From a virus (Duplodnaviria > Caudoviricetes): a stretch of 51,280 bases of DNA. Numbering within the stretch: position 1 is the first letter of the stretch; the number at the start of each line of letters is the position of its first letter. Under the pieces are notes generated by a model. The model did no database searches. It was given only the letters and a program-made list of their open reading frames with translations, and was not told the origin of the DNA. The translations under genes were made by a program, and so were the position numbers. This document shows positions 176 through 34,683 of this stretch, piece by piece. Where the stretch lies: the IMG/VR virus record IMGVR_UViG_3300012953_007445, positions 1 to 51,280 of that record; one strand, written 5' to 3'.

Positions 176-475
176 ATGAAAATCACAAAGAACCAATTAA
201 GAAGAATCATTAAAGAAGAAAAAGCTAAACTAACAAAAGAAAAGCTAAACGAGACTCATTCCATGGAGTCTGTTAAAGATCTAAGCAGCATCATCGATGC
301 TATAGACGATATCACTAACGGAGTATATCAGAGCGATCCTGAACTGGCTAAAGATTTAGAAATGCAGGTGGAAAGACTAGCTAACCTACATGATAAACTA
401 GAACGTTCATTACAAGATAGCTCATTTCGAAAAGTAGATGATCGACGACCTACTGATGCAGATGGTTACACATGA
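176..475 (+). CDS. Leader-bearing putative internal head protein (99 aa)
   Basis: N-terminus MKITKNQLRRIIKEE, then KLNE; acidic helical body. Confidence 0.8.
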   Translation: MKITKNQLRRIIKEEKAKLTKEKLNETHSMESVKDLSSIIDAIDDITNGVYQSDPELAKDLEMQVERLANLHDKLERSLQDSSFRKVDDRRPTDADGYT

Positions 476-618
476 AATTTACAGTAAAGTTAATAGATTG
501 GCATAAAGAAAAAGTTGATAATGTCATGTATCGTATGGGATTATCTTTTTATCAACTAAATTGGCTAGCTTTTGTTAAGGGTATAGTCATTGGATATATC
601 ATTGGAGTATACACATGA
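472..618 (+). CDS. Small predicted membrane protein (48 aa), absent from the ORF track
   Basis: MKFTVKLIDWHKEKVDNVMYRMGLSFYQLNWLAFVKGIVIGYIIGVYT*; ATGA overlaps with both neighbours; hydrophobic C-terminus with GxxxG spacing. Confidence 0.75.
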   Translation: MKFTVKLIDWHKEKVDNVMYRMGLSFYQLNWLAFVKGIVIGYIIGVYT

Positions 619-914
619 AGATTACAAAGAATCAGTTAAGAAGAATTATTAGAGAAGAGAAGCAGAAGCTTTTAAAAGAAGCTCCAGCAGGACAGTACGA
701 CCGGATGTTGTATGAAAAACTAAAAGAAGCTATCAAAGAAGTAGTTTATGAAGTTGCAATAGACGAGGGTTTTGTAGAATCAAATGGCATGAACATTACT
801 ACTGAAGCTATTCAAGCGGCTGGTGCTGCACTTTCAGACGCTGCGCGCGAGTTCTACAAGGAACAGGGTATGAAGCACGATATGCCTTCTGTAAAGATCG
901 GAAAGCCTTTATGA
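615..914 (+). CDS. Leader-bearing putative internal head protein (99 aa)
   Basis: MKITKNQLRRIIREEKQKLLKE; GGAG upstream. Confidence 0.8.
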   Translation: MKITKNQLRRIIREEKQKLLKEAPAGQYDRMLYEKLKEAIKEVVYEVAIDEGFVESNGMNITTEAIQAAGAALSDAAREFYKEQGMKHDMPSVKIGKPL

Positions 915-1180
915 AGATTACCAAACGACAGTTAAGAAGAATCATTAAAGAAGAGAAGCAGAAGCTGCTTAGTGAAGTTGATTTCGTCGACTTTAATGTT
1001 CCTAGAATTCAAAAGCAAGCCTACTCTACTCTAGAAGATTTGCTCATGATGGGTCTACCTCAGTTTGTAGACGATATAAGGGCTGAAGAGTTTGCCACAT
1101 TTGAAAAAGTGGTGATGGATGCTGTGGCCGAATTGAAAGATAGAACAGTTAAAAATTATTCAGGAGATATAGTAAAATGA
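911..1180 (+). CDS. Leader-bearing putative internal head protein (89 aa)
   Basis: MKITKRQLRRIIKEEKQKLLSE; ATGA overlap. Confidence 0.8.
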   Translation: MKITKRQLRRIIKEEKQKLLSEVDFVDFNVPRIQKQAYSTLEDLLMMGLPQFVDDIRAEEFATFEKVVMDAVAELKDRTVKNYSGDIVK

Positions 1181-1518
1181 AAATCACGAAAAGACAACTT
1201 CGAAGAATTATTAAAGAAGAAAAATCTCGTATTATAAGAGAGCAAAACGATGGTCACCTTTACCCTAGGGTTATGTGGACAAATGTAGAAGAGCTAACCG
1301 ATAAGTGGCAAAGCGCAGAGTACGACTCTTTTGATGAAGGTAATCCATCAATGATGGCTATGGGAAAAACCGCAACAGAAGCCCGTCAGAGATGGAACGA
1401 TCAGATTGAAGGTGCCGCCATGGACATGGAAGCTGAAATGACTCAAAGGATCAGGAAAGTAGCTTTGCAAACTATGAAAGAGTTCTCAACTAAACTTATA
1501 AACGGAGACTACGCGTAA
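1177..1518 (+). CDS. Leader-bearing putative internal head protein (113 aa)
   Basis: MKITKRQLRRIIKEEKSRIIRE; AGGAG upstream. Confidence 0.8.
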   Translation: MKITKRQLRRIIKEEKSRIIREQNDGHLYPRVMWTNVEELTDKWQSAEYDSFDEGNPSMMAMGKTATEARQRWNDQIEGAAMDMEAEMTQRIRKVALQTMKEFSTKLINGDYA

Positions 1519-1583
1519 TGGTTACCTTTTGGGAAGCTTTGATTAAAGGTTTGTCTCTAGAAAAAAAGAAGGATAAAAGATGA
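1518..1583 (+). CDS. Candidate 21-aa peptide, absent from the ORF track
   Basis: MVTFWEALIKGLSLEKKKDKR*; TAATG overlap at start, ATGA overlap at end, GGAG upstream. Confidence 0.5.
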   Translation: MVTFWEALIKGLSLEKKKDKR

Positions 1584-2293
1584 AGATCACAGAGAAACAG
1601 TTGAGAAAAATCATTAAGGAAGAGAGGCAAAAAGTAATTGCAGAAACGAAAGTGAGAAAAGCTGTTCGTTCTATGCTGCTTGAGGCTGAGGTCGATCCTA
1701 CCCAAAAAGCTAAAGAAATTATGGTTAAATATTTCAAGATTGCTGATGATCGTTTTCACGAGTATGAAGAAAGAAGAGATTTTGATGACTGGCATACGCA
1801 AGTTCAAGAAGCTATGCTAGACGAGTTAGTAGAACCAGATTACCAGATAGTTCGAAAACACGCTCGAATCGGATTGGAATACGCTTTTAACCAATTCGTC
1901 GCGAGTGCTCCTGACATGAGTGGAAACGCTGATGATATCAAGGGAATCTTGGGAGGATATATTGAAAAACATGTTCCTGGAAGGATTGACAAAAATCCCG
2001 GGCCTATGACTAGTATTGAAATTCAATGGAATCAAGATTTCAGTGATGAATATCAGATTGAGCAAGGAAATATAAAAGCCCCGGGCGACAACATTACTCC
2101 GAGAGTTAGAAAGCCATTAAGCAGAGAATTTCTGGGGTATAGAGAAACAGGAACCGGAAATTACGGTTATCATAAAGTATCCGGTCCTTATAAACTATTA
2201 AAAAAATGGCATTTACGACATGTCGGTGGAGCGTCTCAAAAAAAATATTGGGATGACATATTTGACAAAAAAGCAGTTGTAGAAAAGGGATAA
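1580..2293 (+). CDS. Leader-bearing putative internal head protein (237 aa)
   Basis: MKITEKQLRKIIKEERQKVIAE followed by a second basic helix KVRKAVRSMLLE. Confidence 0.8.
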   Translation: MKITEKQLRKIIKEERQKVIAETKVRKAVRSMLLEAEVDPTQKAKEIMVKYFKIADDRFHEYEERRDFDDWHTQVQEAMLDELVEPDYQIVRKHARIGLEYAFNQFVASAPDMSGNADDIKGILGGYIEKHVPGRIDKNPGPMTSIEIQWNQDFSDEYQIEQGNIKAPGDNITPRVRKPLSREFLGYRETGTGNYGYHKVSGPYKLLKKWHLRHVGGASQKKYWDDIFDKKAVVEKG

Positions 2294-2296
2294 GCC

Positions 2297-2725
2297 GTGA
2301 AGATCACAAAACGACAATTAAGAAAAATTATCAAAGAAGAATTGGTAAGGGAGATGGATAGGGATGCAATGATGGATCTCGAAGCTAGAGAGCGAGCAGA
2401 GGATGTAAAACAAGATCTATCCAAACCGATCCCTATTGATGATTTACAATTCGTTGATGAAGAAGGTTATGGAGCTATGATGTTCCCAGGAGTCGGCCAC
2501 AGTTACTCAGTTAGAGAAAAAGACTTCGAAGTAGAAAAGGAAAAGCTAAAAAAGAGGTATGGAGCAGATGCTATGATATCAACTCCAGATCCTAGATATC
2601 CTAAGTCAAAGAAAATACACAGCGCTAAATTTGATCAAGCACAATCTAGAGAAAATCAAAATTTTATGAGACACCAAAAGATGATGCAGGGTCGTTTAGG
2701 GAGAAAACCAAGTCTAGGATCATGA
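2297..2725 (+). CDS. Leader-bearing putative internal head protein (142 aa)
   Basis: GTG start; MKITKRQLRKIIKEELVRE. Confidence 0.8.
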   Translation: MKITKRQLRKIIKEELVREMDRDAMMDLEARERAEDVKQDLSKPIPIDDLQFVDEEGYGAMMFPGVGHSYSVREKDFEVEKEKLKKRYGADAMISTPDPRYPKSKKIHSAKFDQAQSRENQNFMRHQKMMQGRLGRKPSLGS

Positions 2726-3564
2726 TTTTACAGGAAGAATATATAAGAGAGATTTTGCTAGAATTTGAGCTAGAGAAAAGATCTAGCCCAGAATATGGAA
2801 ATCTTTATGAATATTATTCGGGTGAAAGACTGGATGAGTTAGCACCTTTAGTAGCCATTGCAAGAGCGTTACCAATGGTAGCGCGAAGTGCTGCTCAAAT
2901 TAGTGGAAATGCAACTAAAGTTTTGAGTAATAGCTTTAAAAATGGGGTTCTTAACTTATCAAAGAACGTTACAAAATCTTTAAGTAATGCGGCTAAAGAA
3001 GCTACTGATCTTTTGAAAGCTTTAGAAGATAAAGGGATAAGTTCAAGCTCAGAAGATGATGAAAAAAAAGGCGAGGCTAAGAAAGCTATGGAAAGCATTA
3101 TGTCTCAGTTTACTCAATTCATGAATGATGCGGCTGAGCCACTTAAATATTCGAAAGATAAGAACACTGAATATCATCAAGCTTTAAAAGACTTTGGATC
3201 TAAAGTTGGAGAGATTGACAAAATGTGGACAGGTGGTGTAATATCTAAACCGAGAGATTCTTTGTCAGGTTTTGATTTTAATGATTTGGAAGGTGTTTTT
3301 AGTTATACTGAAGGGCTTCCAGAAGATTTTGGTTCAGAAGAAACCGAAGATACACAAATGCAAAAACCTGACACTTTCTCAGATAAGAAAAAAATGGAAA
3401 AGTTAAAAGGTGCCATCACTGATACATATGGTATATCATCAAAATTAATAGACGGCGATAAATTGGAATCTATGTTGGGCGGTCTTCTAGGGGCAGAAGA
3501 CGCTCCAGGACCAAAATCAAAGATAAACCCGAACTCGAGAAGAGGAGCAGGAGGAAAGAAATGA
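2722..3564 (+). CDS. Hypothetical protein (280 aa), paralog of 3561-4391
   Basis: Shared core SEDDEKK..A..AME.IM..F..F...A..H....F......ID....G; degenerate leader YIREILLE. Confidence 0.75.
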   Translation: MILQEEYIREILLEFELEKRSSPEYGNLYEYYSGERLDELAPLVAIARALPMVARSAAQISGNATKVLSNSFKNGVLNLSKNVTKSLSNAAKEATDLLKALEDKGISSSSEDDEKKGEAKKAMESIMSQFTQFMNDAAEPLKYSKDKNTEYHQALKDFGSKVGEIDKMWTGGVISKPRDSLSGFDFNDLEGVFSYTEGLPEDFGSEETEDTQMQKPDTFSDKKKMEKLKGAITDTYGISSKLIDGDKLESMLGGLLGAEDAPGPKSKINPNSRRGAGGKK

Positions 3565-4391
3565 AAGTTTCAAAAAACAAACTTAGAAGAATCATAGCAG
3601 AAGAACTATCTGGACAATCTAAAAACGATAATAGATTTATCAGAGAATCAATCAGAGAAATAATCATACAGGAAGAACTGCAGCTTGAATTCTTGGATAA
3701 GATCAAGGGAGCTTTTGGCAAGATAGCTTCTGGTGAATTTTCCAAAGATATGAAGAAAAAGATGGATGTTTTCCTTAACGGCGAAAAGCTTGAGCTTCCT
3801 GGAGAAATTACGGGAAAATTGGAAAAGGCGATGAGCGGAGCTGAGGCTCTCTTTCAGGCTATGGAAAAAGAACCGGTTACTTTATCTACCGAAGATGAGA
3901 GTAAAAAAGAAAAAGCCGCTGCAGCAATGGAAGCAATCATGAAAGACTTTGGAGAGTTTGTCAAAGAAGCTGGGCCGGCAATGACTGTTACTCCAGAAAA
4001 GAGTTCAGATACCCATAAGCGTATGAGAGAATTTACAAGTCTAATCAGTAAAATCGATCGTATATACACAGACGGAAAACGTAGAAAAGCAGATAAAACA
4101 CTTTCTAAATTTGATCCTACTTCTCTAAATCCTCTCATCTTAAAATACAAAGGTAGACCAGTTGCAGGAACAGGGAAGGGAAGTGATGATGGAGAAGAGA
4201 AAACAGCTGCGGGGAAAGCGACTGATAAACTTTTAGATAGTAGCGCAATGAAAGGTCTTAAAACTGCTTTTGGGAAAGCGAAAAGCAAAGATGCAGTGAA
4301 AGAAACTTTAAGTGCTCTTTTTGCTGAATTGCCTGAAGAATCTAAAGGGTATCTAAAGCAAGCGCTGAAAGACTTAGCAGGGGGAATGTAA
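3561..4391 (+). CDS. Leader-bearing hypothetical protein (276 aa)
   Basis: MKVSKNKLRRIIAEE then FIRESIREIIIQEELQLE; AGGAGG SD. Confidence 0.8.
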   Translation: MKVSKNKLRRIIAEELSGQSKNDNRFIRESIREIIIQEELQLEFLDKIKGAFGKIASGEFSKDMKKKMDVFLNGEKLELPGEITGKLEKAMSGAEALFQAMEKEPVTLSTEDESKKEKAAAAMEAIMKDFGEFVKEAGPAMTVTPEKSSDTHKRMREFTSLISKIDRIYTDGKRRKADKTLSKFDPTSLNPLILKYKGRPVAGTGKGSDDGEEKTAAGKATDKLLDSSAMKGLKTAFGKAKSKDAVKETLSALFAELPEESKGYLKQALKDLAGGM

Positions 4392-4392
4392 A

Positions 4393-4716
4393 GTGAGAAC
4401 TACTAAAAAAAGTATTAGAAGATTGATAAGAGAATTTATTGAAGATTTAGATCTTATCGATCTTAATCAAATCCCTCTTGACTATACGCCTCCTAAAGAA
4501 GAAATTTCTCGAGAATTTGGGAAAGGTGGAGATGCTAAAATGGCAAGAGGACAACTATTTCATATCGCAAAAAACTCTCAAAGTTTACATGATAAATTAG
4601 AAGATGAAGACCAACTTCCAGAGTGGGCTCAAAGCAAGATTGCTGTTATTAAGAGTATGTTGGACGCTGTACATGATCATTTAGATTATAAAATGCATAG
4701 AGAAGATCATGAATGA
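4393..4716 (+). CDS. Leader-bearing hypothetical protein (107 aa), paralog of 4906-5190
   Basis: MRTTKKSIRRLIRE; helical domain MARGQLFHI..LHDKLEDEDQLPEWAQSKIA..VHDHLDYK. Confidence 0.75.
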   Translation: MRTTKKSIRRLIREFIEDLDLIDLNQIPLDYTPPKEEISREFGKGGDAKMARGQLFHIAKNSQSLHDKLEDEDQLPEWAQSKIAVIKSMLDAVHDHLDYKMHREDHE

Positions 4717-4909
4717 TGACTATCCAGGGTTAGAAAAAACACTGATAGAAATAGAAGAAGATATTAAGGAAGATGAAGAACAAGATATTCTCCCTTTAAT
4801 AGATTTTGAAATAAGCATCAAAAAAAAAGAAAGCAACATTAGCGTAGAAAATATTTATAGTAAAATTAGAAAGAGATTAATTTCTGTAATTAGGAGAAAA
4901 AATTCATGA
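4709..4909 (+). CDS. Hypothetical protein (66 aa)
   Basis: Overlaps both neighbours; acidic N-half, basic C-terminus. Confidence 0.6.
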   Translation: MNDDYPGLEKTLIEIEEDIKEDEEQDILPLIDFEISIKKKESNISVENIYSKIRKRLISVIRRKNS

Positions 4910-5190
4910 GGATTAAATTAAGCACTTTAAAAAAATTTATTAGAGAAAGCTGCGGGGATGAGATTCCTAATGAAATTCCGGATGGCAGAGATCTAGACTA
5001 TAGCATGCCGGATGAAGGTAAGCATGCTAAAACTCATTTGTTTCATACCTCGGATGATGCGATGAGGCTTCACGATATATTGAGAGATAATGATAACATA
5101 CCAACCTGGTGCCTAGAGTACTTAGCTATAGCGCGTCATGGTGTTGGTGTGGTTCATGATTATCTCTCATATAAGATTCAACAAAAATAG
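4906..5190 (+). CDS. Leader-bearing hypothetical protein (94 aa), paralog of 4393-4716
   Basis: MRIKLSTLKKFIRES; HAKTHLFH..LHDILRDNDNIPTW..VHDYLSYK. Confidence 0.75.
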   Translation: MRIKLSTLKKFIRESCGDEIPNEIPDGRDLDYSMPDEGKHAKTHLFHTSDDAMRLHDILRDNDNIPTWCLEYLAIARHGVGVVHDYLSYKIQQK

Positions 5191-5243
5191 TTTATCGTTA
5201 ACTGTTCAAGATAGACTTTATAATTATAATTACGAAAACTCAG

Positions 5244-5726
5244 GTGGAGGAACTATTACCTAAAATGGATGACGATAGTAGAATTAAGCGCCTGAGAGAA
5301 TTTGTTCAACTTTATCTCAGGCGCACTATGATAATGGAGAACAAAGATGAAAAACTCAGAATTAAATTTCTTCCTAAGAAAAGCTCTTCTAAACTTGGAG
5401 AGAGCAAGAATGCTAGCGGTTCGAAAAGAAGAAGTCTTAAAAATTCGAAGAATAAATACAGCAATATTAGAAATCAAAAAATCTATAGAGAAGAAATAAA
5501 AGAAGAAATTGGTAGAAGCTATGATTCTGTTGATAACAACCCGATACAAGGGGAAAAAATATTCAGCGATTTGAAAATAGAAATATACCCGGTAGGTAAA
5601 ACATTTATGGCTTCAATCGAAGATAAGAATGGCAAGAAAATTTCTAAACTTTTTAGAGATGAAGAATCAGCTGACGTATGGGTCAGAAATAATTCTCTAA
5701 ACATGAGTAATAAATTTACTCAATAA
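5244..5726 (+). CDS. Hypothetical protein (up to 160 aa)
   Basis: Open frame; start could be GTG 5244 or the ATG eight codons later; contains IKRLREFV and IKEE. Confidence 0.65.
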   Translation: MEELLPKMDDDSRIKRLREFVQLYLRRTMIMENKDEKLRIKFLPKKSSSKLGESKNASGSKRRSLKNSKNKYSNIRNQKIYREEIKEEIGRSYDSVDNNPIQGEKIFSDLKIEIYPVGKTFMASIEDKNGKKISKLFRDEESADVWVRNNSLNMSNKFTQ

Positions 5727-6465
5727 GAATATCTATTTCTCTTTTTTTAGCATCTAAATAAGAATCTAAACAGTCAATCATATCTTTATGTTTAATAGAA
5801 AGAGAAATATGATTAAACTGAAGATGCGTTCTTTGTATTAATCCGACAATCATATCATTTTGATTAAATACTGGAGCACCTGAGGCTCCCGGGCCAGTGG
5901 GGATTCCAAAAAAAGAAAATATTTTGTGATCTCCGAAGTATCTTCCTTCTTTAATTGGAACCATACCGACGTGAAATATAGAGTAAGGAGCAGCTATAGA
6001 ATAATGCTTTTGATTCAACGTTGGTTTAAGTACTGATACTTTTGGAATTCTTTTGATGTTTATTGTTTTTTCTACCTCAATAATGCAAAGATCATATTTG
6101 AGATTAATGTATTTAATTTCTCCCTTAAGCTCTTTGCCAGTGTAAGAATTTAGTAAGATTTCTGTACTTACTTGGGATTTTTCTGGTATATCATTCCAAA
6201 TGCCATAAGCTGGGCCTAGGCAAACGTGAGCAGCAGATATAAAAGCTGTATTGTTTTTGTAACTAAAAAAGCTCCCAGAACCAAAGGCTACTTTTATTCC
6301 CATCGATTTTAAAGAACATTCTTTGGTTTTTTCATTACATTCTAAAATTTTTAATTCTACTGTAGATTGTACTTGTGCAAAAGCACTTTGATGAGGACGA
6401 ATGTCTCTGGCAGAAGCTGCACAACTAGCAATTAAAAAGCAGAAAAAAAATAAACTAAATTTCAT
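5716..6465 (-). CDS. Trypsin-like (S1) serine protease, predicted lipoprotein
   Basis: Catalytic motifs SAAHVC, DLCII, GASGAPV; signal MKFSLFFFCFLIASC with lipobox IAS-C. Confidence 0.85.
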   Translation of the reverse strand: MKFSLFFFCFLIASCAASARDIRPHQSAFAQVQSTVELKILECNEKTKECSLKSMGIKVAFGSGSFFSYKNNTAFISAAHVCLGPAYGIWNDIPEKSQVSTEILLNSYTGKELKGEIKYINLKYDLCIIEVEKTINIKRIPKVSVLKPTLNQKHYSIAAPYSIFHVGMVPIKEGRYFGDHKIFSFFGIPTGPGASGAPVFNQNDMIVGLIQRTHLQFNHISLSIKHKDMIDCLDSYLDAKKREIDILIE

Positions 6466-9883: not shown

Positions 9884-11056
9884 ATGTCTACTTTTAAAGA
9901 AAATAAAGGTGTTTCTGACAGATCCGGATCGGATCGCCAAAGACACAAAGAAAAAATCGATAGAGCAATAAAGGATGGTATTCACAATATTGTTGCTGAT
10001 GAATCTATTATTGGGCAAGACGGGAAGAAGAAAATTAAAATTCCCGTTAAAGGAATCAAGGAATATCGTTTTGTTTATGGCGATAACGAAAATAAAAAAA
10101 ATGTAGGTTCAGCGCAAGGAAAAGATATCGCAAAGGGACAGAAAGTCGGGTCCAAAGATAAAGGACAGCCGGCTAAACCCAATAAAGCAGGTAACAGTGA
10201 AGGCGAAGAATATTATGAAGTTGAGATAACTTTAGAAGAATTGGCTAACTATCTTTTTGATGATTTGAAACTTCCGAATATGGAAAAAAGAAAAATCAAA
10301 AATATTGCTGAGAAATCTTATAAAAGACATGGATACAGAAAAAAAGGAATTAGACCTAGATTAGATAAAAAGCAAACAATAAAAAATAAAATAAAAAGAA
10401 AAAAGAAAGCGGTAAAGAATAATTCATTCGATCCCGAAAGTGATGATAGGTTTGCTTTCCATAACGATGATTTGAAATATAGACATATCAAAGAAAAAAC
10501 TAAGCACTCGTCTAATGCATGCGTATTCTTTATCATGGATGTAAGTGGTTCTATGACAAAAGGAAAGAAGTTTCTAGCAAGGAGTTTCTTTTTCTTGCTT
10601 TATCAATTCATTAGATCTAAATACGAAAATACAGAACATTGTTTTATATCTCACGATTATAGTGCTAATGAAGTTTCCGAAGAAGATTTTTTCGGAAAAT
10701 CAACGAATGGAGGAACTTTAGTTTCTACCGGTTTAAAGAAATGTCATGACATTATCAACTCTAGATATAATCCTGAAACTTGGAATATATATGTTTTTCA
10801 ATGTTCTGATGGCGATAACTGGCCTGAAGATAATGACAACACAATAGAGCTAGCAAACATTTTAAAAAATATTAGTCAATTTTTTGGGTATTGTGAGATT
10901 GAACCTAGAGATAGGAAATCAGCTTGGGCTCAACTATCCGCTTTGTCAGAAACATATTCATCGTTGGTTGATAAGAAATTTAAAATTGCTGAAATAAGAA
11001 ATAAAGATGATCTTTGGCTAGCGTTTCAGAGATTCTTTGGAGGTTTTCATGAGTGA
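9884..11056 (+). CDS. yeaH: YeaH/YhbH (DUF444) vWA-domain protein
   Basis: DRQRHKEKI N-terminus, MIDAS MDVSGS, GGTLVS, WNIYVFQCSDGDNW. Confidence 0.92.
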   Translation: MSTFKENKGVSDRSGSDRQRHKEKIDRAIKDGIHNIVADESIIGQDGKKKIKIPVKGIKEYRFVYGDNENKKNVGSAQGKDIAKGQKVGSKDKGQPAKPNKAGNSEGEEYYEVEITLEELANYLFDDLKLPNMEKRKIKNIAEKSYKRHGYRKKGIRPRLDKKQTIKNKIKRKKKAVKNNSFDPESDDRFAFHNDDLKYRHIKEKTKHSSNACVFFIMDVSGSMTKGKKFLARSFFFLLYQFIRSKYENTEHCFISHDYSANEVSEEDFFGKSTNGGTLVSTGLKKCHDIINSRYNPETWNIYVFQCSDGDNWPEDNDNTIELANILKNISQFFGYCEIEPRDRKSAWAQLSALSETYSSLVDKKFKIAEIRNKDDLWLAFQRFFGGFHE

Positions 11057-12353
11057 TTGGGATATAAAAGATCTAGAAACTTGGGATAATAAGATTATAG
11101 AGCTTGGGAAGAAAAATAACCTAGATTGGTTTCCTATCTCATACGAAATATGTGATTACTATGCGATGATCGGTAACATGGCTTATCACGGAATGCCATT
11201 GCATTATCGCCATTGGAGCTACGGTAAGTCTTTTGAAAGAACACACCAAATGTATAACTTGGGCGCAGAAGGGTTACCTTACGAGCTCATAATAAATAGT
11301 GATCCATCGATCGCATATCTCATGAGAGAAAACCCATTTTACCTGCAGCTTTTGATTATGTGTCATTGTGTTGGTCACTCTGACTTTTTTAAAAACAACT
11401 TAACTTTTGCGAACACCGGACCGGAAAATGTCATTCAGAGATTCAAGAATGCAAAAAAAAGAATCGATTCTTATATAGAAGATCCTAGCATAGGGATAGA
11501 AAAAGTCGAAAAAATATTAGATGCAGCTCACTCTTTATCGATGAACGTCCCGGTAAATTGCAAAGAATATATCCCGCATAAGCAAAGAAGAAAAGAGCTA
11601 ATAGAAAAAATTAAAAACGGAGATGATAGGTATAAAGATAAGAATCCAGATTCTTTTCCTATAGAACCAGAAAATGATTTATTAGCCTTTGTAGGAGAAA
11701 TGGCTTTAAATTTAGAAGATTGGGAAAAAGATATTATTGAAATTGTAAGACAAGAATCTTTTTATTTTATGCCTCAAATTAGGACTAAAATCATGAATGA
11801 AGGGTGGGCTAGCTTTTGGCACTATAGGTTAATGCATCAGCTAGATTTGCCACAAAAATACCACATCCCCTTTTTGAAAAGTCACAATCAAGTTGTTAGA
11901 CCTCACTTGGGAAGGATTAATCCATATCATTTAGGTTTTCACTTATTCAATAAAATAGAGGAAAGGTACGGTCTAGAAGAATGCTTTATTGCTAGGGAAG
12001 TTTGCCATGACGAATCCTTTTTAAGGCAGTATTTAACAAAAGAAGACTGTTATGAATTAAACTTGTTCTCCTATTCCTTATATAAAAAAGACTATGTAAT
12101 AAATGAAGTTTCAGATGATGAAGGTTGGAAAGAGGTTAAATCTTCTTTGATAAAACAGATTGGTTCTAATTCCATCCCTAAAATCATAGTAAGTGAAATG
12201 AAACAGAATAACGTTTTAAAAGTACATCATGAACATGATGGGAGAGATTTAGAGTTAAGCTACGCAGAAAAAGTTGTTGACTACATAAGCACTCTTTGGG
12301 GTGGGGTTGTAAGGCTTGATACTATTATTGAAGATGAACCTTTCGAAATTTAG
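11049..12353 (+). CDS. spoVR: SpoVR/YcgB family protein
   Basis: YRHWSYGK, YELIINSDP, GHSDFFKNN, TKIMNEGWASFWH, NPYHLG; start ATG 11049 with GGAGG SD. Confidence 0.93.
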   Translation: MSDWDIKDLETWDNKIIELGKKNNLDWFPISYEICDYYAMIGNMAYHGMPLHYRHWSYGKSFERTHQMYNLGAEGLPYELIINSDPSIAYLMRENPFYLQLLIMCHCVGHSDFFKNNLTFANTGPENVIQRFKNAKKRIDSYIEDPSIGIEKVEKILDAAHSLSMNVPVNCKEYIPHKQRRKELIEKIKNGDDRYKDKNPDSFPIEPENDLLAFVGEMALNLEDWEKDIIEIVRQESFYFMPQIRTKIMNEGWASFWHYRLMHQLDLPQKYHIPFLKSHNQVVRPHLGRINPYHLGFHLFNKIEERYGLEECFIAREVCHDESFLRQYLTKEDCYELNLFSYSLYKKDYVINEVSDDEGWKEVKSSLIKQIGSNSIPKIIVSEMKQNNVLKVHHEHDGRDLELSYAEKVVDYISTLWGGVVRLDTIIEDEPFEI

Positions 12354-12361
12354 GAGTTACT

Positions 12362-14290
12362 GTGAGTAAAAAAGATTTTCTAAAAATTATACAGGAACAA
12401 AGAAAAAAATCTAAGAGAAAAAAATTTAAAGGAAACTTTATTGATTTTCTAGAGCACGTTAAAGAGAACCCTACAGCTGCTGATACTGCGCATAAAAAAC
12501 TTTATGATTCTATTATGAAACACGGCCTAGCGCACATAGATGATAGCAATAATAGAAAACATAAAATATTTGAAGGCGAAAATATTAAAATTTATGATTA
12601 TTTCAAGAATGAGTTTTTCGGTGCTGAAAAAGTCGTATCTAAGATAATGAATTTTTTAAAGTCTGCTGCTGCTAGAGGAGAAGAGTCTAGACAAGTATTA
12701 TTATTGATGGGCCCTGTTGGGGCTGGTAAGTCTGCTTTGACAGAGCACATTAAAAGTGCGCTAGAAGGAGAAAGTTACTTTCATATTGAAGGAGATCCTC
12801 AGAAAGGCAATCCTTTGCAATTAATACCTCGAGGAATTAGAGAATCTTTCGAAGAACATCTAGGCGTTGATATCGATGGTGATATATCTCCCCCTGTCAG
12901 ATACCAACTTTTAAAAGAACTCGATGGTAAGTATGAAGATTTTAACGTTGTAGAGACTACTTTTTCACAAAGAGGCCGAAGAGGAATTGCTTCTGTTCCA
13001 CCGATGGATGCGAATTCTCAAGACACTTCTGTATTGATAGGTTCAGAAGATATTTCGAAATTAGATCTTTATTCTGAAGATGATCCTCGAGTTCTTTCAC
13101 TTAACGGAGCTTTTAATGTTGGTAACCGAGGAATCGTAGAATTCGTTGAAATATTCAAAAACGAAATTGAGTTTTTGCATACAATAATAACAGCGACGCA
13201 AGAAAAAAGAGTTCCTGCTCCCGGTCGTCATGATATGATTCATTTTGATGGTGTCATTTTGGCACACTGTAATGAAGCAGAGTGGAATAGATTTCAAAGT
13301 GAGCACACTAACGAAGCTATTTTAGATCGTGTAGTAAAAGTTAACGTCCCTTATGTTTTAGAACTTGAGCAAGAGATAAAGATATATGAGAAACTCTTAT
13401 CAAGATCCAAATTTGATAGTCATATCGCTCCTCATACTATTAGAATCGCTTCAATGTTTAGTGTTATGTCTAGATTAAAACAATCTGGAAAATGCGATTT
13501 GCTGACGAAACTAAGAATATATAACGGAGAAGATGTAATCGAGAAGGGTAGAGTTAAAAAGGTAGACATCAAAGATTTAAGGGACGAGAGCAATCAAGAA
13601 GGGATGGATGGTATATCAACCAGATTTATCATGAAGTCAATAGACAGGGCGATCTCTGATAGCGATAAAGGGTTTATAACTCCAATATCAATTATCGATA
13701 CAATTGCTAAAAATTGCAAAGAACAATTAATCGATGAGAATTTTAAAAAGCATTGTTTGACTATTTTGCAGGATATTGTTAGAAAAGAATACTTGAGAAT
13801 ATTAGAAAATGAAATAGCTAAAGCATTTATTGCAGCTTACGAAGAACAGGCTCAATCTCTTTTTGAAACTTATTTAGATAATGCCGAAGCTTTTGCGATG
13901 AAGGCAAAAATGAAAGATAAAGTGACAAATGAAGAAATGCAACCTGATGAAAAATTCATGGGTACTATTGAAGAATGTATTGGCATAGTCGGATCTTCAA
14001 AAGAAGGCTTTAGGAGTGATGTAACAGCTTATATGTTTGCTAAAATAAGAAGAGGCGAGACCATAGATTATCGTAGTTATGAGCCTCTTAAAGAAGCAAT
14101 AGAAAGTTATCTTATAAATAGTGTTAAAGATATGGCTAGGATTGTTACTAAATCAAAGACACGAGATGACAAACAGAAGAAAAAATACAATAGTATGGTA
14201 AAAACAATGATTGACGATTATGGTTATACAGAGGACTCTGCTGAAGAGATCCTTGTATACGCTAGTAATAACCTCTGGAGAGATAGTTAA
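12362..14290 (+). CDS. prkA: PrkA/YeaG AAA+ serine kinase-family protein
   Basis: GPVGAGKS, NRGIVEFVEIFK, AHCNEAEW, EGMDGISTRF; GTG start with AGGAG SD. Confidence 0.93.
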   Translation: MSKKDFLKIIQEQRKKSKRKKFKGNFIDFLEHVKENPTAADTAHKKLYDSIMKHGLAHIDDSNNRKHKIFEGENIKIYDYFKNEFFGAEKVVSKIMNFLKSAAARGEESRQVLLLMGPVGAGKSALTEHIKSALEGESYFHIEGDPQKGNPLQLIPRGIRESFEEHLGVDIDGDISPPVRYQLLKELDGKYEDFNVVETTFSQRGRRGIASVPPMDANSQDTSVLIGSEDISKLDLYSEDDPRVLSLNGAFNVGNRGIVEFVEIFKNEIEFLHTIITATQEKRVPAPGRHDMIHFDGVILAHCNEAEWNRFQSEHTNEAILDRVVKVNVPYVLELEQEIKIYEKLLSRSKFDSHIAPHTIRIASMFSVMSRLKQSGKCDLLTKLRIYNGEDVIEKGRVKKVDIKDLRDESNQEGMDGISTRFIMKSIDRAISDSDKGFITPISIIDTIAKNCKEQLIDENFKKHCLTILQDIVRKEYLRILENEIAKAFIAAYEEQAQSLFETYLDNAEAFAMKAKMKDKVTNEEMQPDEKFMGTIEECIGIVGSSKEGFRSDVTAYMFAKIRRGETIDYRSYEPLKEAIESYLINSVKDMARIVTKSKTRDDKQKKKYNSMVKTMIDDYGYTEDSAEEILVYASNNLWRDS

Positions 14291-26775: not shown

Positions 26776-28659
26776 ATGACAGATAAAAATAATCCTCATG
26801 TAATTATAGTAGCAGATTTTTTTGCAAAAGACATCACTGGTGGTGCTGAATTAAGTACTCAAGCTTTAATCGATTCAGTTCCGGAAGATATTGAACTTGA
26901 AACTATGTACTCCCGAGATGTCAGTCTAGAAAATTTAGAAGAACATAAAGACTCTTTTTGGATTTTTACAAATTGCGCCGGCATGGATTTAAATTTGATT
27001 CCATCAATTGCTGCTAATCTAGACTATTCGATAGTAGAGTATGACTATAAATTTTGTAAATATCGTTCTGTTGAGAAGCACAACCTGATAGAAAATAAAG
27101 AGTGTGATTGTCACGAACAAATTCATGGTAAAATAATTTCTGCTTTTTTCTTAGGAGCAAAAAGTATTTGGTGGATGTCAGAAGCTCAGCAACAAAGATA
27201 TATTGATAAGTTTCCTTTTCTAGAAAATGTTAATTCAGTTGTCTTGAGTTCTGTTTTTGATGACGCATTCTTCTTAAAGATAAGAGAACTAAATTCTCTA
27301 AATTTAGAAAGAAATGGCTGGGTAGTTTTAGATTCAGACAGCTGGATTAAGGGAACTGAAAGTGCTATAAACTATTGCGAAGAAAATAATCTTAAGTTCA
27401 GTACTATTAAAGATTTACCATATAATGAAGTGCTAGAAAAACTAGCTGCAGCTGAAGGTTTAGTTTATTTACCTCGTGGTGGAGATACATGCCCTAGGCT
27501 AGTGATTGAAGCTCAAGTTTTAGGTTGTCGATTAATTTTAAACGAAAACGTTCAACATAAAGATGAGATATGGTTTGATACAAAAAACTTCTTTGATACT
27601 GAAGCTTATCTTTACGCAGCTCGAGAAAGATTTTGGAACGGTATAATATCTGATATCAATTGGGATCCAAAGATATCAGGATACACTACAGTGTATAATT
27701 GCATAAAAAACGAATATCCATGGGAAAAAACAGTAGAATCTATGCTTGGATTCTGTGACGAGGTTGTAGTAGTCGATTCAGGGTCTGATGATGGTACTTG
27801 GGAAAAATTGCTAGAAATTGCTGAAAGAAATGAAAAGGTAGTAGCAAAACAAAATAAAATCGATTGGGATCATCCTAGGTTTGCTTATCACAGCGACGGC
27901 ATGCAAAAAGCTTTTGCTCGAGATTTTTGTACAGGAGATTTTTGCTGGCAAATGGATTCAGATGAGTTTGTCTTGCCGAAAGACTTTGAAAAAATCAAAC
28001 AATTAGTAAAAAGGTTTCCTCAACTTTCCGAATTAGTAGCTTTACCAGTCGTAGAATTTTGGGGAAGTTACGATAAAGTAAGGGTTGATATTAATCCATG
28101 GAAATGGAGAATAAGCAGAAACAAGCCATACATAACGCATGGAATACCAAAAGAGTTACGAAGGTTTGATGAGAATGGTGGCATGTATACTGCTCCGGGA
28201 AGCGATACATGCGATTATATACATAAAGAATCATTCGATCGTATCCCTTTTATTGCTTATTATTCGGAAGAAGTAGAATTACTTAGAAGAGAAGCTTTGA
28301 ATGGAAATATAGAATCTCTTAACAAATATGAAAAATGGTATAATGACGTTTCTGAATCGGTACCAACTGTTTATCACATGTCTTGGTTTGATATAGAGAG
28401 AAAGATTAGATTATTCAAAAGTTATTGGACAAAATTTTGGCTAAGTCAATATAATATACCGGTAGAAGATATATCTGAGAATAACATGTTTTTTGATAAA
28501 CCTTGGAAAGATGTTAAAGACGAAGAAATAAAATTACTTTCAGAAAAATTAGCTAGCGATATGGGAGGGTGGATTTTCCACACTAAAATAAATTGGTCAG
28601 CTAAGACACCTTCAATAAAGATTTCTCACGGATGTAAAGATTATCTAGACAATGAATAA
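26776..28659 (+). CDS. Two-domain glycosyltransferase (GT-B-like N-terminus + GT2 C-terminus)
   Basis: GGAELS, DTCPRLVIEAQVLG; VVVVDSGSDDGT, WQMDSDE. Confidence 0.85.
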   Translation: MTDKNNPHVIIVADFFAKDITGGAELSTQALIDSVPEDIELETMYSRDVSLENLEEHKDSFWIFTNCAGMDLNLIPSIAANLDYSIVEYDYKFCKYRSVEKHNLIENKECDCHEQIHGKIISAFFLGAKSIWWMSEAQQQRYIDKFPFLENVNSVVLSSVFDDAFFLKIRELNSLNLERNGWVVLDSDSWIKGTESAINYCEENNLKFSTIKDLPYNEVLEKLAAAEGLVYLPRGGDTCPRLVIEAQVLGCRLILNENVQHKDEIWFDTKNFFDTEAYLYAARERFWNGIISDINWDPKISGYTTVYNCIKNEYPWEKTVESMLGFCDEVVVVDSGSDDGTWEKLLEIAERNEKVVAKQNKIDWDHPRFAYHSDGMQKAFARDFCTGDFCWQMDSDEFVLPKDFEKIKQLVKRFPQLSELVALPVVEFWGSYDKVRVDINPWKWRISRNKPYITHGIPKELRRFDENGGMYTAPGSDTCDYIHKESFDRIPFIAYYSEEVELLRREALNGNIESLNKYEKWYNDVSESVPTVYHMSWFDIERKIRLFKSYWTKFWLSQYNIPVEDISENNMFFDKPWKDVKDEEIKLLSEKLASDMGGWIFHTKINWSAKTPSIKISHGCKDYLDNE

Positions 28660-29353
28660 AAAAGTATCGATAGTAGTACCGGTAAAAAATTGTGAATCTA
28701 CTGTCAAAAGATCTTTAGATTCTGTTTTAGAACAAACCTACGAAAATTTTGAATTAATAATTGTTAATAACAATTGTACTGACAAAACTATTGAAATAGT
28801 CAAAGAAATAAATGACAATCGAATAAAAATCGTAGATTGTAAAATTTCAGGCATTGTTCCAGCTTTAAATACAGGATTAAAAGTAACTACAGGAGATTAC
28901 ATTGCTAGGCAAGACGGCGATGATTATTGGCATCCGAATAAATTAGAAAAACAAGTTTATGTGTTAGATAACAGCAGTACTGATATATGTGGTACTCAAA
29001 TTAATATTTTAGATAAAGATTTTAAAGTTGTCGATGATTCTTTTAGGTACCCATTAAAGGACAAGCCAATAAAATCTTGGTTATTAACTGGCAAGAACGC
29101 TATAGCCCACCCATCGGTAGTTTTTAGAAAAGAAGTACTCTTAAGGGTTGGCGGGTATGATGATTCTTATCCTATAGCTGAAGATCATCATATGTGGTTA
29201 AGATGCATTAGGTGGTTTAATTTCTTTAATTTATCTGATGTATTAGTTGATTACACCGCAGTTCATAATCCCATGTACGATTCAAAGTATCCCTTGCTTT
29301 CATCTGAAGCTCAATTTAAAGTCTTGAGTTATATGGGATATATAAAAGTATGA
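28652..29353 (+). CDS. GT2 glycosyltransferase
   Basis: VSIVVPVKN, YIARQDGDD, AHPSV, AEDHHMW. Confidence 0.92.
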   Translation: MNKKVSIVVPVKNCESTVKRSLDSVLEQTYENFELIIVNNNCTDKTIEIVKEINDNRIKIVDCKISGIVPALNTGLKVTTGDYIARQDGDDYWHPNKLEKQVYVLDNSSTDICGTQINILDKDFKVVDDSFRYPLKDKPIKSWLLTGKNAIAHPSVVFRKEVLLRVGGYDDSYPIAEDHHMWLRCIRWFNFFNLSDVLVDYTAVHNPMYDSKYPLLSSEAQFKVLSYMGYIKV

Positions 29354-30129
29354 TAACTAGCTTTCAAATAGGCACAAATGGAAGGTTTGGAAATCAAATG
29401 TTTCAGTATGCCGCGATGTTTGGTTTATCAAAACTTAAAGATTTAGACATTTATTTACATAGTAATAATCACGAACTCTTTGATGCTTTTTATTTACCGT
29501 CAGCAAAAAAAGCGAACGAAGAAGTAAAAAAGGAAATCAAGTTTCAATATAAAGAACCTAGTTTCTATTTTAATACGAACTTCTTCAATGCTGGTACTAA
29601 AACCGACTTATATGGATATTTTCAGTCTCCACTATATTTTTTGCATTGTTTAAATGAACTGGAAAAAGAATTTAATTTTAGAGATGAAATTCGTTTAGAA
29701 GCTGCTGAACAATACGAAAGATATAGGGATAATCTTCCGACATGTTCTATTCATGTGAGAAGAACTGATTACTTAAAAACCCCAGAATATCATCCTACTT
29801 GTTCTATTGATTACTATAATAACGCAAAAAACATTATAAAAAATTCTTCTAACGCAAAGATAAAATTTTTAGTCTTTGGAGATGATAAAAAATGGATAGA
29901 AGATAACTTGCTAGATGAAGATTCGTTCTTTGTAGAAGGAAATCCAGGTCCATTAGATATGTGTATGATGTCAATGTGCAACGCACACATAATAGCAAAC
30001 TCGAGTTTTTCTTGGTGGGCAGCTATGCTTGGGAAAAGAAATTCTGTTATTGCTCCTAAAGTTTGGTTCGGTCCTCAGGGACCTCCGAACTATGATACTA
30101 TATATTACGAAAGGTGGTTGAAAATATAA
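29350..30129 (+). CDS. GT11 alpha-1,2-fucosyltransferase
   Basis: GRFGNQMFQYA, GYFQS, IHVRRTDY, IIANSSFSWW. Confidence 0.92.
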   Translation: MITSFQIGTNGRFGNQMFQYAAMFGLSKLKDLDIYLHSNNHELFDAFYLPSAKKANEEVKKEIKFQYKEPSFYFNTNFFNAGTKTDLYGYFQSPLYFLHCLNELEKEFNFRDEIRLEAAEQYERYRDNLPTCSIHVRRTDYLKTPEYHPTCSIDYYNNAKNIIKNSSNAKIKFLVFGDDKKWIEDNLLDEDSFFVEGNPGPLDMCMMSMCNAHIIANSSFSWWAAMLGKRNSVIAPKVWFGPQGPPNYDTIYYERWLKI

Positions 30130-31205
30130 TGAGTTGGTTACCCCCATATATGAAACCAGAAGATGTTGCAACCAATTGTCGAGCTGATCAGCATTATTCT
30201 TGTATGATGGCTTCGACAGTTGGCGGCATGTACAAGAGTCATACTCCAGACATAACTTTTTTAATTCCTTATGGCACAGATTCTCAAAATAGATTTGAGA
30301 ATCTTTGTGATGTTTTGTGTTGGATTAGTTTCACTACAACAGCTAAAGTAGAATTGTATATTTCCGAGACAGAAAAAGCTTTCTCTTCTTTTCGCTGGTT
30401 TGATTTAGATTCAGCGATTGAACAATATCAAGCTGGAAATAAAAAAGAAGTAGATGATAGCGTTAAAGAGATATTATATGACAATATGTGTATCCACCGA
30501 ATGCATAAAAATGAATTTGGACAACTATTTTTCTATGGAATAGCTTTGGAAGATTTTAAAGATAGGGTCAATATTCATATAGAAAGAAGATCAGACGACG
30601 CACCTTTTCATAGGACTAAATATCTTAACGAAATGCTTACGCGAGTAACAACTCCTTATTGCGCTAATCATGATGCTGACGTGATCTTATCTCGAGACGG
30701 TTTATTAACATCAATAGGAATGCTTAGGACTTCTGACACAGACATTGTATATCCTTACGGATATGGAAAGTATCAAGTAATGATACACGAAAGGGTAGGT
30801 CCTGGAAGCATTAATTTGGAGAAATTAATATTAACTGGTGATGGAACTGGCATAGTATCTTCTCTAGGCACCGGTACTATGATTTGGGATGCTAAATACG
30901 GTCAATCGATAATCTATAGAACAGATTCTTATAAAAAAGTCTTTGGTGAAAATGAAGAATTTATATCTTGGGGTCCGGAAGATGTAGAAAGGTACGTCAG
31001 ATCTTATCGATTCAAAATGAAAATAGCGAGAATTAGTACTCATATATTCCACCTTGAACATCCTAGGGGATCCGAAAGTTCGACTTCTAATTCTAAATTT
31101 AATCATAATGAAGACCTATGGCAAAAGATTCAAAACTTAAAAGCAGAAGAACTTCTAGAATACTATGAAAACTTAGAATATGTAAAAAGATATGGCTGGT
31201 CTTAA
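30129..31205 (+). CDS. GT-A glycosyltransferase with GT7-like C-terminal motif
   Basis: NHDADV, GENEEFISWGPED, FHLEH; start ATG 30129 (TAATG). Confidence 0.8.
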   Translation: MSWLPPYMKPEDVATNCRADQHYSCMMASTVGGMYKSHTPDITFLIPYGTDSQNRFENLCDVLCWISFTTTAKVELYISETEKAFSSFRWFDLDSAIEQYQAGNKKEVDDSVKEILYDNMCIHRMHKNEFGQLFFYGIALEDFKDRVNIHIERRSDDAPFHRTKYLNEMLTRVTTPYCANHDADVILSRDGLLTSIGMLRTSDTDIVYPYGYGKYQVMIHERVGPGSINLEKLILTGDGTGIVSSLGTGTMIWDAKYGQSIIYRTDSYKKVFGENEEFISWGPEDVERYVRSYRFKMKIARISTHIFHLEHPRGSESSTSNSKFNHNEDLWQKIQNLKAEELLEYYENLEYVKRYGWS

Positions 31206-31236
31206 TATTTATTAGTAAGATTCTCCAGGGAGAGAA

Positions 31237-31893
31237 ATGTCAGAAACTTACTACAAATATAATTTAAAAGAATTTAATTTTGAATCTTTATTTAAAGAAC
31301 TTTTCGCTATTAAAGATTTACAAAAACTTCATTTAGACTCTAAAGAAGAATACGATTTCTTTGGAGAACCTGGAAAAGATTCTGATACCAAATATCATAA
31401 AATATTTTATGACAAAATGCGAGCCGGCTGGCCAGAATTTTTGAATCTTTACAAAAAGTTTATAAAAGAGATAGTAGTTCCTCAGTTAGAAAAAGATGAG
31501 TTTATTTATCAAACTTGGCCAAGCTTTCGAGTTCATCTTCCTGATAATGTAGCTGTAGGAGGTTGGCATAAAGATGCTGATTATAATCACCCACCTGGAG
31601 AAATTAATTTTATCGTAGCTGTTACTCCTATGTTTGAAAGTAATTCAACCATATCAGAAGCTAATCCAGGAAAAATGGATTTTAGGCAATTTACTTTAAA
31701 GCCAGGAGAATACGTAAAGTTTAATGGTAATCAATGCATTCACGGAAATTTACCAAACAAAACTGGAGTTACTAGAATTAGTTTTGATTTTAGGTTAATG
31801 AAAAAAAGTGATTATAACGATAAGCATGAATTAAAATCTCTTTCTAAAGGAAATAAGTTTTTAATTGGTCACTACTATGAGGAATTAGATTGA
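31237..31893 (+). CDS. 2OG-Fe(II) oxygenase-like protein (StrG-like)
   Basis: PSFRVH, WHKD (HxD), HGN..N.TG.TRISFDFR. Confidence 0.72.
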   Translation: MSETYYKYNLKEFNFESLFKELFAIKDLQKLHLDSKEEYDFFGEPGKDSDTKYHKIFYDKMRAGWPEFLNLYKKFIKEIVVPQLEKDEFIYQTWPSFRVHLPDNVAVGGWHKDADYNHPPGEINFIVAVTPMFESNSTISEANPGKMDFRQFTLKPGEYVKFNGNQCIHGNLPNKTGVTRISFDFRLMKKSDYNDKHELKSLSKGNKFLIGHYYEELD

Positions 31894-33781: not shown

Positions 33782-33797
33782 AAAAAATAGTTAGAAT
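33769..33797 (+). promoter_or_regulatory. Candidate sigma70-type promoter giving a near-leaderless transcript
   Basis: TTGTAA-17 nt-TAGAAT, 6 nt before ATG 33804, no SD. Confidence 0.4.
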
Positions 33798-33803
33798 TAT
33801 CTA

Positions 33804-34682: not shown

Positions 34683-34683
34683 A

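What the first reader, a model, noticed from the sequence alone, without database searches (positions are those of the whole stretch)
176..5726. Array of unrelated cargo proteins sharing one N-terminal address tag (MKITKRQLRRIIKEE...hydrophobic-x-E): candidate capsid-loading and co-injection system
Seen: six ORFs (176, 615, 911, 1177, 1580, 2297) begin with a near-identical basic amphipathic 15-mer, three more (3561, 4393, 4906) with degenerate copies, and similarity stops after a Glu site (KLNE, LLKE, LLSE, IIRE, VIAE/MLLE, LVRE, LQLE). Known: T4 internal proteins carry a short N-terminal capsid targeting sequence removed by prohead protease gp21 after (I/L)-x-E, and IPI* is an injected anti-restriction protein. 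Inference: this leader, which does not resemble the T4 tag in sequence, routes diverse cargo into the prohead, is clipped, and the mature cargo is delivered with the DNA as effectors or counter-defence proteins. It could serve as a portable packaging tag.
Basis: partly seen in the sequence, partly recalled or inferred. Interest (0 to 1): 0.88.

Follow-up and report, generated by a model that had tools for sequence, protein, structure and literature searches.

The report
Capsid-loading tag on phage cargo proteins
A marine virus of bacteria and its large relatives start dozens of mostly unrelated small proteins with the same short peptide, which likely works like phage T4's 'load into the head, then clip off' label and would mark proteins predicted to be delivered into the host cell; loading, clipping and delivery are all still unobserved.

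Summary
Nine ORFs at 176-5190 share a basic amphipathic leader with an invariant hydrophobic-x-Glu14, often followed by a second one near residue 22. The window is a myophage fragment without head genes. Relatives carry 28-37 tagged ORFs per near-complete genome (two tag types) and a T4-type portal, gp21-type protease and gp23-type capsid protein (protease in 4 of 4 near-complete records). Their capsid proteins have L/V-x-E aligned with T4's known cut site. Two conserved genes between protease and scaffold begin with leader variants. The tag is absent from the recognisable replication and tail genes. Cargo bodies are acidic, fast-changing and slightly poor in cut sites. One enzyme body occurs with either tag. 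Best reading: a functional analogue of T4's capsid targeting sequence, unrelated in sequence and much larger in scale (0.72). Packaging, cleavage, injection and counter-defence are untested. The late-promoter test was inconclusive, and a scaffold origin of the tag was not supported. No paper with this motif was found; the concept is known from T4, and this scan noted similar leaders on other DNA. New variant of a known kind; interest 0.55.

The parts
176..475 (+). Tagged ORF, 99 aa; type I leader, sites I-K-E14 and L-N-E26; acidic body with homologues in relatives
472..618 (+). 48-aa ORF with a hydrophobic C-terminal stretch and no leader, inserted in the array
615..914 (+). Tagged ORF, 99 aa; type I leader, sites E14 and L-K-E22
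911..1180 (+). Tagged ORF, 89 aa; type I leader, sites E14 and L-S-E22; no named relative
1177..1518 (+). Tagged ORF, 113 aa; type I leader, sites E14 and I-R-E22; body shared with tagged proteins of G001, G004 and G017
1580..2293 (+). Tagged ORF, 237 aa; type I leader, sites E14, I-A-E22 and L-L-E35; no named relative or fold
2297..2725 (+). Tagged ORF, 142 aa, GTG start; type I leader, sites E14 and V-R-E19; homologue in G017
2722..3564 (+). 280-aa paralogue of 3561; N-terminus resembles the second tag type by eye (it did not pass the type II regex)
3561..4391 (+). Tagged ORF, 276 aa; degenerate type I leader followed by further I-x-E sites at 29, 33 and 38
4393..4716 (+). Tagged ORF, 107 aa, GTG start; degenerate leader ending at I-R-E14; predicted helical-hairpin body also found in cyanophage proteins that start with a T4-CTS-like peptide
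4709..4909 (+). 66-aa ORF with an acidic N-terminal half and no N-terminal leader
4906..5190 (+). Tagged ORF, 94 aa; degenerate leader ending at I-R-E14; paralogue of 4393
5265..5726 (+). 153-aa ORF (likely ATG start at 5265, not GTG 5244); weak type II-like core by eye; homologue in G017

Best explanation
The shared peptide is likely a capsid-targeting propeptide that would dock each tagged protein on the prohead core, be clipped after a hydrophobic-x-Glu site by the phage's gp21-type protease, and leave a small acidic mature protein in the head, likely ejected with the DNA. Shown: the leader, its Glu sites, its spread, and the co-occurring T4-type head module in relatives. Inferred with good support: head association and cleavage. 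Long forms would be cut at the second site near residue 22 and short forms at Glu14. Inferred weakly: ejection and action on the host; the binding partner is unknown. The tag behaves as a movable module: two types exist, they alternate on the same body, and internal copies would let the protease split fused cargo.
For: (1) Peptidase_S77 in 14 of 20 records searched, 4 of 4 that are at least 90% complete; the 6 misses are at most 45% complete. Gp23 in 13 of 20. The closest relatives by baseplate protein (about 60% identity) include G015 and G016, both with the protease. The G015 protease matches T4 gp21 structure 5JBL (E 4e-14) and has His and Ser where that construct has Ala. (2) 14 of 14 capsid proteins have L/V-x-E followed by A/S/Q at residue 59-61, aligned with T4 gp23 Glu65, the known cut (PMC9958956, passage). 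(3) A second hydrophobic-x-E lies in residues 15-27 of 231 of 334 leaders, against 77 of 331, 69 of 331 and 82 of 324 in equal body windows. When it is missing, residue 15 is A/S/Q in 50 of 103, against 25 of 231 when present. (4) Two genes between protease and scaffold, found in 12 and 11 of 12 head modules, start with leader variants and rank 1 and 3 of 97 core families by hhalign (probability 71% and 40%). (5) L/I-x-E is enriched in scaffold (1.6x), in the gene between portal and protease (2.4x) and in capsid propeptides (3.7x), but is 0.91-0.93x in cargo bodies against 1.13x in 561 untagged ORFs (bootstrap P 0.003-0.005). (6) 89 of 98 core families have no tagged member, including all those matched to the window's Pfam-named enzymes and baseplate genes. 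(7) An HD-domain body carries type I or type II tags, and a HAD-like body carries a type II tag or none. (8) Cyanophage homologues of the 4393 body start MKTFKQLREE, like T4 IPI-III.
Against: No virion, cleavage or injection data exist. The window itself holds no head genes. hydrophobic-x-E is a weak motif, common in helices: 21-25% of control windows have it. The depletion in bodies is small: against acidic controls it is 0.91-0.93 versus 1.08 (P 0.04-0.05), bodies still average about one site each, and the window's nine bodies show no depletion (O/E 0.98). A candidate late-promoter motif precedes 42 of 60 structural gene runs but only 11 of 42 leader runs and 82 of 552 others (leader versus other P 0.07; leader versus structural P 2e-5). 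The propeptide HMM matches T4 gp23 only at E 0.015-0.03, so the site alignment rests on flanking anchors. Only 3 of 5 and 2 of 5 members of the two head-module families pass the PSSM cut-off. Relatives are not independent, so P values are inflated. With 28-37 tagged genes, copy numbers per head cannot all be T4-like (inference).
Confidence: 0.72

Rival explanations
1. The tagged proteins are accessory core or scaffold components, like T4 gp67/gp68. They are recruited by the same helix, then chopped up or left in the head as acidic filler, and have no role in the host.
For: Bodies are acidic like the scaffold (-8.1 versus -9.4 charges per 100 aa; small untagged ORFs 0.0). Two conserved head-module genes carry the tag. 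Only 2 of 90 scanned cargo proteins reached a Pfam cut-off.
Against: Bodies are not enriched in cut sites whereas scaffold and core candidates are. 71 of 108 type I proteins have no body homologue in the other three genomes, which fits host-facing selection better than structure (inference). Some bodies are enzymes (HD, HAD-like, weak GNAT).
Confidence: 0.14
2. The leader is a non-virion address: a helix that binds a phage or host partner (DNA, a chaperone, a protease adaptor) in the infected cell, and its Glu sites are incidental.
For: Type I is strongly basic (mean +4.6 over residues 1-14). Most arrays lie far from the head genes. The candidate late-promoter motif is rare before leader runs.
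Against: Type II is near neutral yet alternates with type I on the same body. Leader variants sit on head-module genes. The residue after Glu14 shifts to A/S/Q exactly when the second site is missing. T4's own ip genes also lie away from the head genes and on the opposite strand.
Confidence: 0.08
3. The repeat is a DNA or mRNA feature: a recombination cassette end or a strong translation start copied with new genes, with no peptide function.
For: Arrays are tightly coupled. In five relatives identical codons are shared more than codon usage predicts (0.54-0.67 versus 0.36-0.49). 9 of 16 internal copies begin at a start codon.
Against: In the window, codon sharing (0.53) equals expectation (0.51-0.56), and DNA copies are 62-75% identical while the peptide is kept. 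Degenerate leaders keep the hydrophobic face and Glu14. No conserved upstream element was seen beyond purine-rich start regions. Recombination may still be how the tag spreads.
Confidence: 0.04
4. The leader loads cargo into the tail-tube lumen, as N-terminal signals do in extracellular contractile injection systems (recalled, not tested).
For: The phage has contractile-tail baseplate genes.
Against: No recognised tail family carries the tag. The Glu sites match head-protease substrates, and the tag sits on head-module genes.
Confidence: 0.02

Closest known systems
Phage T4 capsid targeting sequence (CTS) of internal proteins IPI, IPII, IPIII, removed by gp21 (PMC9026906, PMC9958956, PMC12373910; passages read)
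   Same: A short shared N-terminal peptide on bodies with little or no homology. It ends in (L/I)-x-E. The genes are variable and lie away from the head module. The phage has a gp20/gp21/gp23-type head.
   Different: No sequence likeness: T4 IPs score -4.0 to -9.6 on the leader PSSM. The tag is 14-22 aa and amphipathic, with two alternative sites. There are two tag types, 28-37 tagged ORFs per genome (T4 has three, related phages at least 10 in all per PMC12373910), internal copies, and variants on conserved head-module genes, whereas T4's CTS is reported not to be on other core proteins (PMC9958956). No experiment exists here.
Propeptides of SPN3US and phiKZ head and ejection proteins (PMC5694885, PMC9026906; passages read)
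   Same: Many head proteins are cut after Glu by a gp21 homologue. SPN3US paralogues gp53/gp54 have identical 15-residue N-termini on diverged bodies. Redundant sites occur in propeptides. The portal is processed there, and portals here have a conserved hydrophobic-hydrophobic-x-E near the C-terminus (13 of 13).
   Different: Those motifs are A-x-E or S/A-x-E, the propeptides are mostly over 100 residues, and the head type differs. The tag here is short and is reused on unrelated families.
T4 prohead core proteins gp67/gp68
   Same: Small genes in the head module with leader variants may be their counterparts (position). T4 gp67 contains LIKEEK, like the leader's IIKEEK.
   Different: gp67 scores -7.4 on the PSSM, so the likeness is not significant. 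The gene order differs. No Pfam, PHROG or NCBIfam match to core proteins was found.
Flavobacterium phage immuto (Immutovirus, MW353175)
   Same: One of the two best-scoring cultured relatives by baseplate protein (28%). It has a like head module and at least two proteins with this leader (genes 177 and 191; PSSM 16.1 and 30.0).
   Different: It has a 160-kb genome with few copies and other N-terminal repeats. I found no virion proteomics for it (listing only).

Membership tests
T4 CTS / internal-protein system | Shared short N-terminal peptide on otherwise non-homologous proteins | tested here: met
   334 leaders fall into 173 body families, 115 of them singletons
T4 CTS / internal-protein system | Sequence similarity to the T4 CTS | tested here: not met
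   IPI-III score -4.0 to -9.6 on the PSSM; so an analogue, not a member
T4 CTS / internal-protein system | Peptide ends in an (L/I)-x-E motif | tested here: met
   hydrophobic-x-E14 in 9 of 9 window leaders; second site in 231 of 334. Glu14 was fixed by the selection regex in the 334 set; the second site was not
T4 CTS / internal-protein system | gp21-type (S77) prohead protease in the same genome | tested here: inconclusive
   Met in relatives (14 of 20 records; 4 of 4 near-complete); the window's own contig ends before the head module
T4 CTS / internal-protein system | Capsid protein propeptide with the same cut motif | tested here: met
   14 of 14 capsid proteins of relatives, aligned with T4 Glu65
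T4 CTS / internal-protein system | Proteins are packaged in the head and lose the peptide | not testable with these tools
   Needs virion proteomics
T4 CTS / internal-protein system | Mature proteins are ejected and block host defence (Ip1-3 against GmrSD) | not testable with these tools
   No window body has a named family
Prohead core proteins (gp22/gp67/gp68 type) | Many internal protease sites, degraded at maturation | tested here: not met
   Cargo bodies O/E 0.91-0.93 against scaffold 1.6
Late (virion) gene class of this clade | Candidate late-promoter motif ATA(T/G/C)TTA upstream | tested here: inconclusive
   11 of 42 leader runs, 42 of 60 structural, 82 of 552 other; the motif is itself only inferred and my gene runs split arrays
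Far-T4 phages (PMC4360716) | Placement of gp23 in the Far-T4 clades | not tested
   No tree was built; not filed under this name

The most novel reading that the evidence does not exclude
A widespread clade of marine jumbo phages runs a mix-and-match protein delivery system. Interchangeable peptide tags, shared with its head-core genes, load roughly 30 fast-evolving acidic proteins and a few enzymes into each head, among them a SpoT-like (p)ppGpp hydrolase candidate and acetyltransferase-like and phosphatase-like proteins. Internal tags turn fused genes into protease-split polyproteins. The cargo disarms the host at the moment of infection, and the tag alone lists hundreds of new counter-defence candidates.
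Probability: 0.33. Interest if true: 0.8.

Novelty: new variant of a known kind. Interest (0 to 1): 0.55.

Why it matters
If right, a 14-residue motif picks out the injected proteome of an abundant uncultured phage group from sequence alone: 171 tagged ORFs in 126 families in the seven sequences scanned. All three T4 internal proteins turned out to block restriction enzymes (PMC12373910), so these are a ready candidate set for counter-defence screens. A 2023 review calls the way proteins are localised in the T4 core unresolved (PMC9958956, passage). Hundreds of natural tag variants, two types and versions on head-module genes make that question testable. The tag might also serve as a second packaging signal for engineering. 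The underlying principle is already known from T4.

Tried and rejected
Complex prediction of the leader with scaffold residues 150-546 and the portal-adjacent protein: no answer (score 0.00), neither evidence for nor against binding. Scaffold origin of the tag: a conserved scaffold helix looks like the leader by eye, but hhalign ranks the scaffold 17 and 41 of 97 for the two tag types, with probability under 4%, and a scaffold-motif HMM does not pick out tagged proteins; rejected as unsupported. Likeness to T4 gp67: not significant. Naming the window's cargo: no hit above a curated cut-off in Pfam or NCBIfam and only weak hits in PHROGs and PADLOC; the ESM Atlas gave nothing named for ORFs 1580 and 911; Foldseek of the 4393 model gave no match at E 0.001 or better. 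Sigma-70 promoter and terminator scans were at chance level. Sequencing runs: no RNA holder listed. I first read one HD homologue as untagged; it has a tag-like core at its C-terminus, so only the HAD family shows tag versus no tag. The sequence look-up in earlier scan findings was empty, and the motif words met no finding. Literature: 0 papers for five motif strings; nothing on this clade's leader in the listings. The library lacks most subscription papers, and no supplements were read. Host and taxonomy were not determined.
Full report
Observation. The window is a 51,280-base virus record that stands alone in the database. It encodes a helicase, a PrkA/DUF444/SpoVR trio, PhoH, sugar enzymes and contractile-tail baseplate proteins, but no recognised head genes. 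ORFs at 176, 615, 911, 1177, 1580 and 2297 begin with a near-identical peptide, and 3561, 4393 and 4906 with degenerate copies. A PSSM built from other contigs scores 8 of 56 window ORFs at 14 bits or more, all in the array, against 0 of 176,690 shuffled windows. The ninth, 4906, is a paralogue of 4393 and keeps Glu14. All nine have hydrophobic-x-Glu at residue 14; seven have further sites within 40 residues. The bodies include two paralogue pairs. AlphaFold gave a low-confidence helix for residues 5-15 of ORF 4393.

Spread. One strict 45-nt degenerate pattern hit 89 stretches of IMG/VR, on at least 36 contigs among the 80 rows listed, many of them 140-290 kb. The 86 loci gave 352 distinct leader segments; 334 start at a start codon and are non-redundant. 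These were selected by a regular expression that fixes most of positions 2-14, so only positions from 15 on are free evidence. Information content falls after residue 15, with a secondary peak at L19, L20 and E22. A second hydrophobic-x-Glu lies in residues 15-27 of 231 of 334, against 21-25% of body windows. The bodies are short (median protein 103 aa), 89% are net negative, and they fall into 173 families, 115 of them singletons. Four near-complete genomes hold 37, 28, 28 and 37 tagged ORFs of about 400, counting a second tag type, M-x-LLREYIRELL-x-E, that shares the L-R-x-hydrophobic-I-(K/R)-E core. In 185,579 prokaryote genomes the exact pattern hit 4 contigs, all MAG contigs with arrays of tagged genes; each holds homologues of the phage set. 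The cultured phage immuto has at least two copies in the 150 kb scanned.

Head machinery. Relatives encode a T4-type terminase, portal, S77 protease and gp23 capsid protein. The protease was found in 14 of 20 records searched and in 4 of 4 that are at least 90% complete; 2 of 22 handles were not held. G015, among the closest by baseplate protein, has protease, capsid protein and tags. Its protease matches T4 gp21 (E 4e-14) and has His and Ser where the crystal construct has Ala; that these are the catalytic residues is recalled. T4 gp21 cuts after L/I-x-E and removes 10-19-residue propeptides from the internal proteins (PMC9026906, passages). In 14 of 14 capsid proteins an L/V-x-E followed by A, S or Q aligns with T4 gp23 Glu65, although the propeptide HMM alone matches T4 only at E 0.015-0.03. 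When a leader lacks the second site, the residue after Glu14 is A, S or Q in 50 of 103, against 25 of 231 otherwise. This is what use of Glu14 as the fallback cut would give; related sequences inflate the significance.

Where the tag sits. Two small genes between protease and scaffold, present in 12 and 11 of 12 head modules, start with leader variants. They rank first and third of 97 core families by profile comparison, with modest probabilities of 71% and 40%. Of 98 families shared by all four near-complete genomes, 9 have a tagged member: these two, a HAD-like family and six unnamed ones. Families matched to the window's Pfam-named enzymes and baseplate genes, and the terminase, portal and capsid protein, have none; labels for other core genes come from inspection only. 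L/I-x-E is over-represented in scaffold, the portal-adjacent protein, capsid propeptides and portal C-termini (1.6, 2.4, 3.7 and 1.9 times; homologues pooled). It is slightly under-represented in cargo bodies: 0.91-0.93 against 1.13 in untagged ORFs and 1.08 in acidic untagged ORFs. The window's own nine bodies show 0.98 with a wide interval. This favours 'exposed to the protease and meant to survive' over 'degraded', but weakly.

Modularity and cargo. An HD-domain protein carries type I in G015 and type II in G001 and G003, and has a tag-like core at its C-terminus in G002. Its best solved matches are Rel/SpoT hydrolase domains (E 9e-11). The stringent response is reported to restrict phage T7 (10.64898/2026.01.27.700999, abstract only), so a delivered hydrolase is plausible but untested. 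A HAD-like body occurs with and without a type II tag. 15 of 336 ORFs have more than one copy, and 9 of 16 extra copies start at a start codon, which suggests fused cassettes. Of 90 cargo and head-module proteins scanned (78 family representatives of 105 aa or more plus 12 added by hand), 2 reached a Pfam cut-off; weak GNAT and RMF hits appeared below it. The 4393 body also occurs in cyanophages S-WAM2 and S-H9-1, in proteins that begin with a peptide resembling the T4 CTS: the same body with each lineage's own tag.

Results against, or neutral. A motif enriched before structural genes precedes 42 of 60 structural gene runs, 11 of 42 leader runs and 82 of 552 others. Tagged arrays therefore do not look like typical late operons by this test. 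My gene runs split arrays, and T4's ip genes also lie outside the head cluster on the other strand, so I count it as inconclusive. A scaffold origin of the tag was not supported. Codon sharing among copies is at expectation in the window but above it in five relatives, so duplication or recombination probably spreads the tag. Nothing here shows packaging, cutting or ejection.

Comparison and novelty. The system likely works like the T4 capsid targeting sequence but is not a member by sequence. T4's Ip1-3 share only their leader, and each blocks a GmrSD enzyme (PMC12373910, passages). SPN3US shows identical N-termini on diverged head proteins (PMC5694885, passages). I found no paper with this motif or describing it in this clade (listings). 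The library misses most subscription papers, and I read no supplements. I saw Mullaney and Black 1996 only as cited, and read passages of PMC4360716 without testing Far-T4 membership. The scan's earlier notes report similar leaders on other phages; these are unchecked AI notes, one marked as partly fallen, and I do not count them as support.

Verdict. The feature is real and probably a head-loading, protease-clipped tag (0.72). Delivery of host-acting cargo is a further inference. It is a new variant of a known kind, notable for its scale, two interchangeable tags and presence on head-module genes. Interest 0.55.

Noticed in passing
window 9884-14290: Phage-encoded DUF444 (YeaH), SpoVR and PrkA trio, conserved in all four near-complete relatives.
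   Followed up: no
window 26776-37091: Block of glycosyltransferases and GDP-sugar enzymes between the tail-fibre-like and baseplate genes.
   Followed up: no
G001 176269-180150; G006 head module (L166): Two tandem gp23-type capsid genes in two relatives.
   Followed up: no
Portal proteins of 12 relatives and immuto (e.g. L095:8636-10633): A hydrophobic-hydrophobic-x-Glu site before an acidic tail in the last 40 residues of 13 of 13, suggesting C-terminal trimming, which T4's portal does not undergo (PMC5694885).
   Followed up: partly
Upstream of structural genes in G001-G004 and G015; window 4851, 18666, 41023: Candidate late-promoter motif ATA(T/G/C)TTA; the 7-mer ATATTTA lies before 32 of 150 structural genes and 5 of 151 replication or metabolism genes.
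   Followed up: partly
L162:7726-9003 (G015) and homologues in G001-G003: Tagged SpoT-like HD hydrolase domain.
   Followed up: partly
MW353175 genes 179, 194, 195, 202: Immuto has another repeated N-terminal peptide (F-x-L-x-x-F-L-x-E type) on unrelated proteins near the head genes.
   Followed up: no
window 5716-6465 (minus strand): Trypsin-like protease with a signal-like N-terminus directly after the array; not the head protease.
   Followed up: no
G014 150918-151724: The Gp23 match spans one TAA stop, possibly just running past the gene end.
   Followed up: no
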